This document shows positions 1,539 through 45,460 of a DNA stretch of 64,000 nt, one piece after another; positions within the stretch are counted from its first letter, which is position 1, and each line of letters opens with the position of its first letter. Both the position numbers and the translations under genes were made by a program. The stretch is from Eledone cirrhosa (taxonomy: Eukaryota): assembly GCA_964016885.1 (NCBI GenBank), contig OZ024740.1, positions 74,338,001 through 74,402,000 of the forward strand. Reading direction: 5' to 3'. The notes under the pieces are model-generated. The model was given only the letters and a program-made list of their open reading frames with translations. It was not told where the DNA came from and made no database searches.

Positions 1539-3177
1539 TTGGTAAACGGAATAGAAAATGCTGACAAATTGTTCACAGTTGAAAAATGGTTTAATTAGGG
1601 ATAAAAGAGTATTAGTGATTGTATGGGTTAGTATTCAGTTGTGGTTTTAAGTTTTTAAGTTTTTACCGGTTGCGCATTTCTAAATGCTTTTCAAAAATAA
1701 TTTTGAGATAGAGTGTCCGTGTTGTTTGCTCTGATCTGATTAGTTTTGGGAATTCTACCTGTTTTTATGTTAAAAAAGTGGCTCCAGCGTTACTTTGGTG
1801 TTGCAAAAATTCTTGTGGTCAAAACAATTTTGATTGGTCGGTAGAGGTCATGTGAATGTAAAAAATTGATTTTGCGCCAAGACTGTTTTTATGTTAAAAA
1901 AGTGGCTCCAGCGCTACTTGGTGCTTGCAAAAATTCTTGTGGTCAAAACAATTTTGATTGGTCGGTAGAGGTCATGTGAATAAAAAATTGGTTTTGCGCC
2001 AAGATTGAGAAATGACTCTTTCACAACAAATATGTGTGTGTGTGTGTGTGTGTGTAGTAGTAGTAGTAAGGTGTTCGATGTTGTGACAATGGTTAGCAGG
2101 GATGTGTGTCAAATGGCTATTAAGATAAGTGTGTGTGTGTCTGTGTGTGTGTGTATATAGCAGAGTAATTTGTGGTAGCAGGGATGGTCAGTAAGAATGT
2201 GTCTGAAAGCAATGGGGGGTATTTTAGCATGTCAAAAGATATTTTTCAGCTTTTGTCTTATATGGAGAAGTGCGTGTGTGTGTGTGTATAAGTCTCTTTG
2301 TATGTTAATGTACGCGTGTGTATATGTGTGTGTATATATATGTGTGTGTGTGTGTGTGTGTGTGTGTGTGGGTGGACCAGTATTTTTTTTCCCCCTGGTA
2401 AAATGGTGTACATTATTCGATTTTTTCAGTAAAATCGGTTCTCTTAATAGAACATCAAAAATCTTTACAATAAAAGGGGTGAAATGATATTCACTATATA
2501 TATATACACATACATATATTCACTATATATATATATATATATATATATATACACATATATGTTTTTGTGTTGCACCATAGACATTGTGTGTTTACTTCTC
2601 CGTATAAGACAAAAGCTGAAAAATATCTTTTGACATGCTAAAATACCCCCCATTGCTTTCAGACACATTCTTACTGACCATCCCTGCTACCACAAATTAC
2701 TCTGCTATATACACACACACACACTTATCTTAATAGCCATTTGACACACATCCCTGCTAACCATTGTCACAACATCGAACACCTTACTACTACTACACAC
2801 ACACACATATTTGTTGTGAAAGAGTCATTTCTCAATCTTGGCGCAAAACCAATTTTTTATTCACATGACCTCTACCGACCAATCAAAATTGTTTTGACCA
2901 CAAGAATTTTTGCAACACCAAAGTAACGCTGGAGCCACTTTTTTAACATAAAAACAGGTAGAATTCCCAAAACTAATCAGATCAGAGCAAACAACACGGA
3001 CATTCTATCTCAAAATTATTTTTGAAAAGCATTTAGAAATGCGCAACCGGTAAAAACTTAAAAACTTAAAACCACAACTGAATACTAACCCATACAATCA
3101 CTAATACTCTTTTATCCCTAATTAAACCATTTTTCAACTGTGAACAATTTATCAGCATTTTCTATTCCGTTTACCAA
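1539..3177. repeat. Long inverted repeat (fold-back): arms 1539-2271 and 2594-3177
   Basis: The arms are reverse complements (TTGGTAAACGGAATAGAAAATG... / ...CATTTTCTATTCCGTTTACCAA) and the ORF track gives the same peptide start MCLKAMGGILACQK on both strands. The left arm carries an extra tandem duplication of about 123 bp (approx. 1759-2003). Confidence 0.92.
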
Positions 3178-3227
3178 TATATAATAACTTGTGTGTTACA
3201 CCTCTATTCTTTTAACTATAGGACTAT

Positions 3228-3286
3228 AGGACTAGAACTGTTTCATTCTTTAGAAATCATCTAAAGAATGAAACAGTTCTAGTCCT
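3228..3286. repeat. Perfect hairpin, 27-bp stem and AATCA loop (shorter copy of 4552-4660)
   Basis: AGGACTAGAACTGTTTCATTCTTTAGA-AATCA-TCTAAAGAATGAAACAGTTCTAGTCCT, followed by GTAGAATCTCATC and (TA)n. Confidence 0.9.
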
Positions 3287-3374
3287 GTAGAATCTCATCT
3301 ATATATATATATATATATATATATATATATATATATATATATATATACATATATATATATATATATATATATGT

Positions 3375-3762
3375 ATAATCCAGCGACGGCTGGAGAGAAA
3401 TGAGGCAAGCATGCTCCGTTGGATGTGCAGTGTAAATGTGCGTGAACGACCCAGCATAAATGTGTTGAGAGAGAAACTGTGTCTGAGAGGAGACTGAGGT
3501 GGTATGGACGTGTGATGCGCATGGAGGATGACCGATGGGTGAAGAAGTGCCAGGAAATGCCAGTTGAAGGAAGACGTGGTAGAGGTAGACCACGAAAAAC
3601 ATGGGCGGCGGTGGTGAGAACAGACCTCAGATCATTGAAGCTCACGGTGGAGATGACGAGGGACCGTGACGAGTGGAGAGATGCTGTGCTGAATAAGACC
3701 CGTCCCACCCTTGCAAGCAGGGAAAAGCGGACGTAAAATGATGATGATGATGATGATGATGA
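3375..3762 (+). mobile_element. RTE-clade LINE 3' fragment with (GAT)n tail
   Basis: Encodes ERRLRWYGRVMRM...RGRGRPRKTW, is near identical to 10975-11370 and ends in (GAT)n. Confidence 0.85.
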
Positions 3763-3849
3763 TATATATATATATATATGTATATATACATATATACATA
3801 TATATAACAGATTAAAGTTTAAGCAAAGAATTGCTGCTTTCACCCTTAA

Positions 3850-4280
3850 CATATATATATATACACACATATATATATACACATATATACACACATATAT
3901 ATATATATACACACATATATATATATACACATATATATATACACATATATACACACACACACATATATATACACATATATATATATACACACACACACAC
4001 ATATATACACACACACACACATATATACACATATATATACACACACACACATATATACACATATATATACACACGCACACATATATATACACACACACAC
4101 ATATATACACATATATATACACACACACACACATATATACACATGTATGTACACACACACATATATACACATATATATACACACACATATATACACATAT
4201 ATATATACACACACATATATACACATATATATATACACACACACATATATATATATATATATACATATATACACATATAT
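3850..4280. repeat. Compound (TA)n/(CA)n microsatellite
   Basis: Alternating TA and CA runs. It explains the low-complexity ORFs in the track. Confidence 0.95.
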
Positions 4281-42663: not shown

Positions 42664-42853
42664 AATTATTTCTACTTTAGGCACAAGGCCTGCAATTATC
42701 CCAGTGCATTACTGGTACTTTATTTTATCAACCCTGGAAGGATGAAAGGCAAAGCTAACCTCGATGGGATTTGAACTCAGAACATAAAGAGCCATAACTC
42801 TATGCTGCAAAGCATGGTGTCTGGCACTCTACTGATACTACCAATCCACTGCT
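42664..42853 (-). mobile_element. tRNA-derived SINE
   Basis: Reverse complement of the SINE consensus. Confidence 0.85.
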
Positions 42854-44242
42854 AAATAAATAATATCCTGATGACATTAATATAAATTTAACAGAATGGC
42901 TTCACAACCACATGGTCCAGTCCCACAGTGTAGCAGCTTGGGTGAGTGTATACTACAGCCTTTGGCTGACCAATGCCTTGGTAGTGAATTTGGTAGACAG
43001 AAACTATGTGGAAACTCATTGGGTGCATATGTGTGTGCACATGTGCACACATGTATGCATAGGTATGTAAGTTTGTTTCCATGCATTTGCTTTTCATTTG
43101 GCAACACTAGAGCAAGCAATGATGTTTGTTTATGTCCCACATAAACAGAGGTCCTGTAGCTCAACAGTTTGATATGCAAAGATCTATACTTTACTTAAAT
43201 AGATCAATGTGGTTTAACAAAAGTAAGGGCATCTATCAGTAGAATATTGTCTTAAAAGTCTCATCTAATCAGTGCTAACAAAAAAAAATGAATGTAAAAA
43301 TGATGATGATGTGGGTGATGATGACATATCTCTACGGAAATAGTACAACATTTAACTGAAGCTGTGTAAATATGTAATTAAATAGATTGACATATGTAAA
43401 CATATCTGTTTTATATATTTTTCTGACAAAGGAAATTTAATATCTCATTTTTATTAATATAAAACTTACATTCAATTAATAATTACAGCTCTATCATTGG
43501 GAAAAAAATGAACATATCACATTCTTTTATTTTTTTACTGATTTCAGTCATTAGATATGGCCATGTTGGAGCACTAAATTAAAGTCAGTTATATTGACAT
43601 CAGTACTTATTTTATCTGTCACTTTTTCTTGAACCACTAAGTTACAGGACAGAAGCACAGACATAAATGCACACAAACATACACATCTATACATACATAC
43701 ATACATATATGTATATATGGTAGTAAAGTGGTTAGTGATAAGGGCATCTAACCATAGAAAACTTATGAAACAAAGAACTAAGAGGACTTTTGAGTTCTGT
43801 AAAAGACATGACAATCTCTCTAGTGCTGCTGCCACAATAAAATACATCTTGTGCATGCTGTAGAGTGTGGGAGTATTTGCAAGTGAAATTCAGCTTCCAG
43901 TCTGACTGAGAGTTCAATAACTCTAATGAAGTACTGACGTGATCTGTGGTAGGCAGTCTTGCCATTGCTAACAGGAAAAACAAATTAAATGATGATGATG
44001 TTGATGATATATATATATATATATATATATATATATATATATATATATATATATATATATATATATATATATATACACATCAGGATAGAACTCTTTATAA
44101 TATATATATATATATATATATATATATATCTCAAGATAAGCAGAACAAGTAAAATTCAACCAATTTTTCAAAATAAATCAAAATTAATATACAATTAAAA
44201 TTAATCAAAATTAAAAAATATAATATAAATATTTACCTATTC

Positions 44243-44332
44243 AAATGGCCCTAACTGTACAGTTTCACGGTGCAAAACATTAAATATCACGAGGATATTA
44301 ATGGAAAAGCAACGGTCATCAGAGAAGCATTT
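44243..44332 (-). ncRNA. Type-I hammerhead ribozyme, second family (copy 1)
   Basis: AAATGCTTCT-CTGATGA-[CCGTTGC...CATTAATATC/GATATTTAATG...GCACCGT]-GAAA-CTGTACAG-TT-AGGGCCATTT. Palindromic stem III, GUU triplet, C.U at 10.1-11.1. Confidence 0.72.
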
Positions 44333-44767
44333 TCCTGTCCTAGGGTTAAAAACCCCAGGAACGACAAAATATATGACCTCACTCCAACTAATACAGGTCT
44401 GAAAGGTCGTGAAAGTGACCCGTAAATACATTGGTGTATAGTGAAGGCGGGAAATCGTAGACTAGCCGTCTATGATCGCTACTAAAAAAGATTTTTAGCA
44501 ACTAAATAGAATGACAAAGATTTATCTCTACATACTGGAGATTGTTGAATAAGGTTAATATATATCTGAGGGTACAATGTACCCCCGGAAATATATAGTG
44601 TGTCTATGATTTAAGGTGGTTCTATGGTAATAATTTGATATACCAGAACTTAATATCAAGATAAGCAGAACAAGTAAAATTCAAACAATTTTTCAAAATA
44701 AATCAAAATTAATATACAATTAAAATTAATCAAAATTAAAAAATATAATATAAATATTTACCTATTC

Positions 44768-44857
44768 AAATGGCCCTAACTGTACAGTTTCACGGTGCAA
44801 AACATTAAATATCACAAGGATATTAATGGAAAAGCAACGGTCATCAGAGAAGCATTT
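44768..44857 (-). ncRNA. Type-I hammerhead ribozyme, second family (copy 2)
   Basis: Same as 44243-44332 with one substitution in the stem II loop. Confidence 0.72.
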
Positions 44858-45050
44858 TCCTGTCCTAGGGTTAAAAACCCCAGGAACGACAAAATATATG
44901 ACCTCACTCCAACTAATACAGGTCTGAAAGGTCGTGAAAGTGACCCGTAAATACATTGGTGTATATACTTATGGTAAACATTGATGCAATTCAATTCAAG
45001 CACTTTATGTATTTTTTCCTCTTAAGAATGACGGAGTATATTTAAAATGA

Positions 45051-45460
45051 GAAAACGCGAAGTAGTTTCAGATGTTAAAGTCCTTTATTGATAAGGCCAT
45101 GATACATATTTCAATGACGACCATGCCACGTGATTCCGCCTAACCAGTGCCATGATCTCATCAGACAGCTTCTTACTTAATAAGGTTACGTTCTCAAGGC
45201 AATCCAAATTAAAACAAAGAAAGAGACAAAAATGATGTTCTTCAGGGGAACGAGTGAAGGCTTCAAGAACATCATCTTCATCTGTTCCCTTGTCGCTTTA
45301 ATTTGGATTGCCTCAAGAACGTAACCTTATTATGTAAGAAGCTGTCTGATGCAATCATGGCACTGGTTAGGCGGAATTTCGTGGTCACTGTTATCATTGA
45401 AATATGTGTCACAGCCTTATCAATAAAGGACTTTAACATCTGAAACTACTTCACATTTTC
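45051..45460. repeat. Imperfect fold-back, arms about 195 bp with about 22-nt loop; degenerate hammerhead-like motif in each arm
   Basis: GAAGTAGTTTCAGATGTTAAAGTCCTTTATTGATAAGGC... is mirrored at 45414-45452. GCTGT-CTGATG(A/C)...GAAA-TATGT(A/G)-TC occurs in both arms. Confidence 0.88.

What the first reader, a model, noticed from the sequence alone, without database searches (positions are those of the whole stretch)
1539..45460. A ladder of (TA)n-associated fold-back elements at every scale: possibly one PLE-driven hairpin-generating system
Seen: six separate inverted repeats in 45 kb, with arms of about 27, 52, 114, 195, 600-730 and 2090 bp, each beside TA-rich microsatellite. The largest is a clear PLE, and most of the others have intact or eroded hammerhead-like motifs pointing outward on both arms (the 114-bp one does not convincingly). 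Established: PLE insertions often include inverted 5'-truncated copies and favour microsatellites. Inference: several non-coding families here may be replicated as hairpins by PLE reverse transcriptase, giving MITE-looking elements of retro origin and a dense source of long dsRNA. That would matter for ADAR editing and small-RNA pathways if the host is a coleoid cephalopod.
Basis: partly seen in the sequence, partly recalled or inferred. Interest (0 to 1): 0.75.

Follow-up and report, generated by a model that had tools for sequence, protein, structure and literature searches.

The report
Head-to-head Penelope stubs from five families
The six mirror-image repeats are real; they are head-to-head, shortened insertions of five different Penelope-like jumping genes (four with protein-coding parents, one non-coding and likely borrowing an enzyme), a known by-product that is likely made afresh at each insertion rather than copied as a hairpin.

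Summary
All six inverted repeats exist. They are ends of five unrelated Penelope-like (PLE) families, not one system. Following longer copies upstream gave coding parents for four: Hydra-clade RT/GIY-YIG for the 2.1-kb, the 52/27-bp (one family) and the 114-bp repeats, and a 753-aa Neptune/Nematis-type frame for the 0.6-0.7-kb one. The 195-bp one comes from a non-coding ~1.3-kb PLE-type unit. All share the published PLE insertion anatomy: (TA)n target, inverted 5'-truncated copy, tail on one arm. Fold points vary (2,020 hairpins in one family; commonest joint 5 of 50 listed), and one joint recurs with the tail on either arm, so hairpins are not copied as units. In the 52-bp family, arm ends pile up 30 nt after a TATA box with an extra G (10 of 11), suggesting two cDNAs run off a capped RNA. 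The scan reported this anatomy and model before, elsewhere in this genome. The host is an octopod. ADAR relevance is plausible but untested.

The parts
1539..2596 (-). Family E, long inverted arm without tail (3' UTR + end of a Neptune/Nematis-type PLE); holds both 124-bp units as the parent does
   Evidence: Matches parent L157 7872-8884, downstream of a 753-aa RT+GIY-YIG frame
2595..3218 (+). Family E, shorter arm with 35-bp tail (3184-3218); no canonical hammerhead
   Evidence: Two 3' end classes, with and without tail, in 30 loci; descriptor scan 0 of 30
3224..3303 (.). Family B remnant (the 27-bp repeat): same joint as 4487-4660, tail arm missing
   Evidence: Sequence, arm alignment, both listed with one joint
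4487..4660 (.). Family B stub (the 52-bp repeat): tail 4487-4551, tail arm on - starting at +2 of the hammerhead core, short arm on + starting at +9; end of a Hydra-clade PLE
   Evidence: tail runs straight into the ORF in tandem copies L262/L263 and ORF lies upstream in L265/L267
11441..11748 (.). Family C stub (the 114-bp repeat): tail on the left, type I hammerhead core CTGAGGA at 11611-11605 (-), right arm cut inside stem II; end of an older Hydra-type PLE
   Evidence: Hydra-type endonuclease end continuous with the 3' UTR in L276 and L277
15948..18127 (-). Family A tail arm: tail 15948-16028, hammerhead core at 16134, endonuclease frame 17172-17966
   Evidence: 37% identity to the family B endonuclease, E 2e-26
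18128..20400 (+). Family A longer arm without tail: RT C-terminus and endonuclease (frameshifted near 18712), hammerhead core at 20295
   Evidence: other copies fold elsewhere
44967..45466 (.). Family D stub (the 195-bp repeat): tail 44967-45039, intact hammerhead core at 45164 (-), mutated core CTGATGC at 45346 (+); end of a non-coding ~1.3-kb PLE-type unit
   Evidence: partial tandems L300, L302, L304, L306 without PLE coding similarity

Best explanation
The six fold-backs are head-to-head, 5'-truncated insertions of five different Penelope-like families into (TA)n, each likely built anew at insertion from two cDNAs copied off the element's RNA. Shown: family identity, coding parents for A, B, C and E, a non-coding unit for D, (TA)n target, one-sided tail, variable fold points. 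Inferred mechanism: the GIY-YIG endonuclease cuts both strands of (TA)n. Each 3' end primes reverse transcription at one of two start sites downstream of the hammerhead (the far site gives the tail arm, the near site the short arm). The two cDNAs are joined head to head through 0-4 nt of microhomology or filler. When the template is the capped 5' end of a transcript started in the terminal repeat, copying runs off after 60-230 nt and leaves the small stubs. When it is the downstream repeat of a read-through transcript, random truncation leaves long arms (E, A). Family D would borrow a Hydra-type enzyme.
For: Parents: E, 753-aa frame with RVT_1 (E 1.6e-7) and GIY-YIG (E 2.2e-6) 1.2 kb upstream of the arm. 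B, tail continuing into an ORF with RWR, DKT, YRDD, CxCx5C. C, endonuclease end continuous with the UTR at 2 loci. A, coding in the window and elsewhere. 3' ends next to (TA)4 in 125 of 150 loci vs 9.3% of 3000 flank positions. Two 3' end classes in all five families. Tail on exactly one arm in 28 of 29 B hairpins. 2,020 B hairpins with varied joints; in the 50 listed the window's joint occurs 3 times (2 are the window's), and the commonest joint (5 of 50) recurs in 4 loop variants (counted by eye). In A, D and E of this window each arm holds sequence that the other lacks (tail on one; 173, 19 and about 320 extra 5' bases on the other), which one cDNA folding back cannot give. B: 11 of 45 arm ends lie at -6, 30 nt after TATAAATA; 10 of 11 carry a G where 26 of 26 long copies have C (P 1.3e-4). 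C: 28 of 30 sense arms end between -35 and -9 although the unit extends over 2 kb. Literature: PMC8557442 (inverted copy, one-sided tail, Hydra in (TA)n), PMC11167929 (both strands cut and extended, two RT starts bounding the tail).
Against: The extra G also extends hammerhead stem I by one pair, so it could be templated rather than cap-derived. In the hairpin-query set all 4 ends at -6 are preceded by T (they overlap the other arm). Start sites are predicted; only B has a clear TATA box. The D pile-up (-105 to -99) lies close to the query edge and may be biased; A and E show little pile-up. Loci are the 30 best-scoring of 47-2228 candidates, not random samples, and include the window's copies and a few loci counted twice. 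The two B copies of the window share one rare joint 1.35 kb apart, which suggests local copying. No intact ORF was found for C and no autonomous partner for D. A longer hairpin trimmed by later deletion could mimic 'each arm has its own sequence'.
Confidence: 0.85

Rival explanations
1. One reading: small non-coding hairpins are themselves the mobile unit, transcribed and reverse-transcribed whole by PLE RT (MITE-like retroelements).
For: 17 of 29 top hits share the window's B joint (the query held that joint). The window has two B copies with the same joint. Family D is non-coding.
Against: That joint occurs with the tail on either arm and in two loop variants. 16 hairpins from a one-arm query gave 16 different joint strings (about 13 joints), none the window's. 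Four of five families have coding parents. Most B stubs have lost the hammerhead core and the promoter.
Confidence: 0.05
2. Snap-back: one cDNA runs off the RNA, folds on a short microhomology and copies itself to make the second arm.
For: Both arms carry the same loop variant in 22 of 22 listed hairpins where both reach a TAAA or TAAT loop (by eye); 3 copies carry mirrored private variants; many joints overlap by 1-3 nt. PMC3846280 proposed self-priming for Penelope palindromes.
Against: Mirrored variants fit two cDNAs from one RNA as well. In A, D and E each arm has its own extra sequence. Four B copies have the extra G on both arms, three of them with only 1-2 nt between, too tight for a fold-back loop.
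Confidence: 0.25
3. The small ones are DNA-transposon MITEs or products of (TA)n breakage and repair, unrelated to PLEs.
For: (TA)n is a shared landing site: 6 of 7 LINE-type (ATG)n tails in the window also abut TA, so TA adjacency alone proves nothing.
Against: Arms are collinear with PLE coding copies, ends are asymmetric, and many copies have a single arm (18 of 30 in C, 20 of 30 in D).
Confidence: 0.02

Closest known systems
EN+ Penelope-like insertion units with inverted 5'-truncated copy and tail (Craig et al. 2021, PMC8557442: passages, section 11, supplement search; Arkhipova et al. 2013, PMC3846280: passages)
   Same: Partial tandems, head-to-head inverted copy, tail at one end, microsatellite bias, hammerhead in the terminal repeat.
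   Different: Tails here are 65-81 bp in A-D (30-40 bp in print; E fits at 35). Thousands of stubs of only 100-500 bp. Long microsatellite-rich 3' UTRs (B tandem period 8.5 kb).
Hydra clade of PLEs, including Hydra-1_Obim of Octopus bimaculoides (PMC8557442 section 11 and supplementary file 1)
   Same: RW(R/K), DKT, CxCx5C linker, no CCHH, CxxC and CxH motifs, type I hammerhead, (TA)n target (families A, B; C in part).
   Different: Different families; B is far longer than the <3 kb described; very high copy number.
Poseidon of Anolis in vitro (Frangieh et al. 2024, PMC11167929, parts 1-2 of 4 read)
   Same: Both strands cut and extended at AT-rich DNA; two internal RT starts bound the tail; hammerhead cleavage not needed.
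   Different: Another clade; the parts read do not explain how the inverted copy is joined and do not report cap-derived G.
Animal non-LTR retrozymes / non-autonomous PLE derivatives (PMC7229834 abstract; bioRxiv 10.64898/2026.07.22.740005 part 1 of 5)
   Same: Family D: non-coding, type I hammerhead, partial tandems, PLE-type ends.
   Different: Unit ~1.3 kb against 170-400 nt; mostly truncated monomers; circular RNA untested.
Opposite-strand hammerhead pairs in Schistosoma (Cervera and de la Pena 2014, PMC4209133, passages)
   Same: Two hammerheads 100-700 bp apart on opposite strands, ascribed to truncated PLEs.
   Different: Not analysed there for joints, tails or start sites.

Membership tests
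EN+ PLE insertion | RT plus C-terminal GIY-YIG in the parent | tested here: met
   E: RVT_1 and GIY-YIG above cut-off. A, B: RT motifs and weak GIY-YIG (E 0.022, below cut-off) with motif match. C: endonuclease end only (E 0.0059, below cut-off). Not met for D.
EN+ PLE insertion | Inverted 5'-truncated copy and tail at one end | tested here: met
   two 3' end classes in all five families; 28 of 29 B hairpins have one tail
EN+ PLE insertion | Partial tandem in which the tail continues into the element's 5' part | tested here: met
   B: L262/L263. D: 10 pattern hits. Not found for C and not seen for A or E.
EN+ PLE insertion | Type I hammerhead in the terminal repeat | tested here: inconclusive
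   Met for A 25/30, B 41/60, C 28/60, D 28/60 loci (a few hits are neighbours); not met for E 0/30. Cleavage untested.
Hydra clade (A, B, C) | RWK-like motif, DKT, CxCX5C linker, no CCHH, CxxC/CxH, (TA)n target | tested here: met
   B all motifs; A linker, CNLC, CLH; C only the endonuclease end, linker degenerate; features from PMC8557442 section 11
Hydra clade (A, B, C) | Placement in the Hydra clade on an RT tree | not tested
   No reference sequences were available as tool inputs; assignment is by motif and by eye against the supplement alignment
Neptune/Nematis type (E) | DKG, CX2-5CxxC linker, CCHH in the endonuclease | tested here: met
   DKGS, CDRPNCGIC, CSGC..H..H in L157; Neptune vs Nematis not resolved
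Non-autonomous PLE / retrozyme (D) | Non-coding unit with hammerhead in tandem | tested here: met
   Unit 1289 bp in L304; collinear in L300, L302, L306 (4 of 10 junction loci; the other 6 are interrupted); no tblastn hit to 7 PLE proteins inside the unit; longest open frame 92 aa in L304
Non-autonomous PLE / retrozyme (D) | Self-cleaved, circular RNA; identified helper element | not testable with these tools
   No RNA run; helper not found in the loci fetched
DNA-transposon MITE | Fixed length, symmetric termini, related transposase | tested here: not met
   Variable fold points, asymmetric ends, many single arms, retroelement parents

The most novel reading that the evidence does not exclude
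This by-product supplies much of the near-perfect double-stranded RNA behind the extreme A-to-I hyper-editing of octopus.
Probability: 0.25. Interest if true: 0.7.

Novelty: new member of a known kind. Interest (0 to 1): 0.35.

Why it matters
For annotation: MITE-looking palindromes in this genome are PLE stubs. For mechanism: how PLEs make inverted copies is named as open in PMC8557442, and these stubs give testable coordinates (B start at -6, RT starts at about +60 and +129). For cephalopod biology: PMC5625713 (passages) reports that octopus has an exceptionally high share of loci able to form long near-perfect dsRNA and that Penelope is heavily edited in lizard; one family here gives 2,020 ready-made hairpins. 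The link to editing is not shown. The anatomy itself is in print, and this scan has met it many times.

Tried and rejected
Rfam scan: no hammerhead at E<=5, also not for textbook cores, so uninformative. First descriptor missed B and C; a relaxed one found them. Pfam on window frames found nothing for the PLE. A 1230-aa PLE frame upstream of C in L166/L273 and of B in L271/L259 was rejected as parent: it has its own 3' end in (TA)n. Pattern search for a C tail running into an ORF gave 7 hits, none informative by their printed ends; those loci were not analysed further. Joint-by-tail-allele tests were invalid (no rows, then orientation confounded) and are not used. MAFFT of the tails was poor, and one input stretch was misplaced; a motif count replaced it. 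Expression: no RNA holder listed. The four runs are contigs of unrecorded kind; they did not reveal the neuropeptide's upstream exon (tblastn also failed), and no listed contig bridged the A joint; neither result is evidence. Literature searches for twin priming in Penelope (2 unrelated listings) and for palindromic non-autonomous Penelope (9 listings, none on point by title) found no paper with this model; subscription journals and bioRxiv supplements were not searchable.
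Full report
Observation. A gapped self-comparison and arm alignments confirm the six inverted repeats: 30 bp (29/30), 52/52, 116 aligned at 90.5%, 199 at 86.9%, 733/584 with 581 of 584 identical, and 2098 at 99.7%. Six self-centred inverted repeats of 55 bp or more pass a strict filter in the window and none in five shuffles. Nine of 12 element ends lie within 10 bp of (TA)5+, where 3.4% of the window does. 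I label the families A (15948-20400), B (3224-3303 and 4487-4660), C (11441-11748), D (44967-45466) and E (1539-3218). The 27- and 52-bp repeats are one family with one joint. The five ends share no significant DNA similarity (best E 0.03), and the parents' endonucleases are 34-44% identical over short stretches. It is not one element at several sizes.

In A, B52, C, D and E one arm continues 35-81 bp further before (TA)n. One-arm searches of the own genome (30 best loci kept of 2228, 893, 1899, 421 and 47 candidates) show two 3' end classes in every family: A +92-105 or +186, B about +49-66 or +129, C +137 or +217, D +114-129 or +199, E 223 or 256. 125 of these 150 ends lie next to (TA)4 (A 26, B 29, C 27, D 16, E 27 of 30), against 9.3% of 3000 flank positions. 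In 28 of 29 B hairpins exactly one arm has the tail. This is the insertion unit described for PLEs: partial tandems, an inverted 5'-truncated copy, a tail at one end (PMC8557442, passages; PMC3846280, passages).

Parents. E: L155 and L157 hold 673- and 753-aa open frames in palindromes that fold at different points; L157 scores RVT_1 and GIY-YIG above cut-off and has DKG, a CX4CxxC linker and CCHH: Neptune/Nematis type. B: in a tandem of period 8.5 kb the tail runs straight into an ORF with RWR, DKT and YRDD, and 526-597-aa frames with CxCx5C lie upstream of the UTR in L265 and L267. These are the Hydra-clade marks (PMC8557442 section 11); a Hydra family in (TA)n is already listed for Octopus bimaculoides. 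A codes for the same kind of protein in the window, and other copies fold elsewhere. C: a Hydra-type endonuclease end is continuous with the 3' UTR at two loci, 84% identical to each other, over 2 kb upstream of the hammerhead; no intact copy was found. D: ten places have the tail running on; in four the sequence returns to the next repeat after 1.3-1.5 kb (1289 bp in L304), the other six are interrupted. The unit has no similarity to seven PLE proteins and no open frame over 92 aa in L304. D is a non-autonomous PLE-type element; its helper is unknown.

Hammerheads. A descriptor found type I cores in A 25/30, B 41/60, C 28/60, D 28/60 and E 0/30 loci. In B stubs the core is cut by the fold. 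A, B, C and D share a motif at the start of the tail, ATACTC..GAGTRC (14/15, 30/30, 5/9 and 4/6 tail copies, one D hit by a different register; E 0/14). The short arm ends just before it. I infer that it is an RT start signal and that D uses a Hydra-type enzyme.

Are hairpins copied as units? A pattern search counts 2,020 B hairpins with close joints. In the first 50 listed, the window's joint occurs 3 times (2 are the window's) and the commonest joint 5 times, in four loop variants. Both arms carry the same loop in 22 of 22 hairpins where both reach TAAA or TAAT (by eye). Sixteen hairpins from the one-arm query gave 16 joint strings, about 13 joints. Among 17 copies with the window's joint the tail is on the +2 arm in 11, on the +9 arm in 5 and on both in 1. 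In C and D only 12 and 10 of 30 loci have an adjacent inverted arm, at many positions. So joints recur by microhomology and arise anew.

Mechanism. Earlier notes of the scan proposed that folds mark the RNA start; I tested this. In B, 11 of 45 arm ends fall at -6, 30 nt after TATAAATA, and 32 of 45 between -6 and +2. Ten of the 11 carry a G where 26 of 26 long copies have C (P 1.3e-4), as expected from copying a cap (known RT behaviour, recalled). The G also extends stem I, so templating is not excluded. In C, 28 of 30 sense arms end between -35 and -9. D clusters at -105 to -99, near the query edge; A and E show little clustering. In A, D and E of this window the tail arm is the shorter one, so each arm holds sequence that the other lacks; a single cDNA folding back cannot do that. 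PMC11167929 (parts 1-2) shows a PLE protein cutting and extending both strands, with two RT starts bounding the tail. Best model: two cDNAs from one RNA, joined head to head; small stubs from the capped 5' end, long arms from read-through RNA. I put the PLE by-product reading at about 0.9 and the two-primer, cap run-off detail at about 0.6. Searches found no paper stating it.

Host and dsRNA. A frame at 6819-7157 matches Octopus vulgaris (88%) and Argonauta hians (84%) proteins. Octopus has unusually many loci able to form long dsRNA, and Penelope is heavily edited in lizard (PMC5625713, passages). Whether these stubs are transcribed or edited was not testable. (TA)n is a shared target: 6 of 7 LINE-type tails in the window abut it too (the RTE label is recalled).

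Verdict. Real, explained by known PLE biology, and seen repeatedly by this scan. New members of a known kind, with a useful mechanistic record. Interest 0.35.

Noticed in passing
window 6819-7157 (+): 112-aa secreted precursor ending RYG with WIWMPSHGYVP, splice acceptor at 6794; likely neuropeptide NKY (name recalled; passages of PMC4200219 did not show the motif). If its first exon lies upstream of 1539, elements E and B would sit in its intron; that exon was not found.
   Followed up: partly
window 44130-44965 (-): 525-bp unit in 1.6 tandem copies (99.4%), CTGATGA at 44847 and 44322, TA at the 3' end, abutting the D tail: candidate retrozyme, perhaps the ~523-nt family in earlier notes. Not detected by my descriptor.
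   Followed up: partly
window 280-480 (-), 21200-21350 (+), 1440-1512 (-): Single-arm stubs with intact hammerheads (378, 21252) and an endonuclease fragment of subfamilies related to A, each ending in TA; decayed Hydra-type RT fragments at 8567-9464.
   Followed up: partly
window 4701-4758: Further 58-bp inverted repeat directly beside (TA)n; no other copy among the loci fetched; unexplained.
   Followed up: partly
window 5097-5550, 25067-26505, 49208-49900: Inverted pairs of a very abundant ~200-bp SINE-like repeat (hits in about 100 of 355 loci); another dsRNA source.
   Followed up: no
window 15804-15950 with 20395-20548; 21855-22561; 53708-55602: LINE 3' ends with (ATG)n tails facing each other across (TA)n tracts; one pair brackets element A.
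   Followed up: no
L304 1516-1740 and other D junction loci: The D tail ends at a splice-donor-like GTAAG and an acceptor-like TTTTCCTGCAG follows about 215 nt later: a possible retained intron, as known for PLEs.
   Followed up: no
L271 2677-6366: Uninterrupted 1230-codon frame of a further PLE type with an asparagine-rich insert; no Pfam hit; copies in L166, L273, relative in L259.
   Followed up: partly
L200, L207, L208, L211: Family C carries a 32-bp satellite array (0.9-3 kb) inside its 3' UTR in some copies.
   Followed up: no
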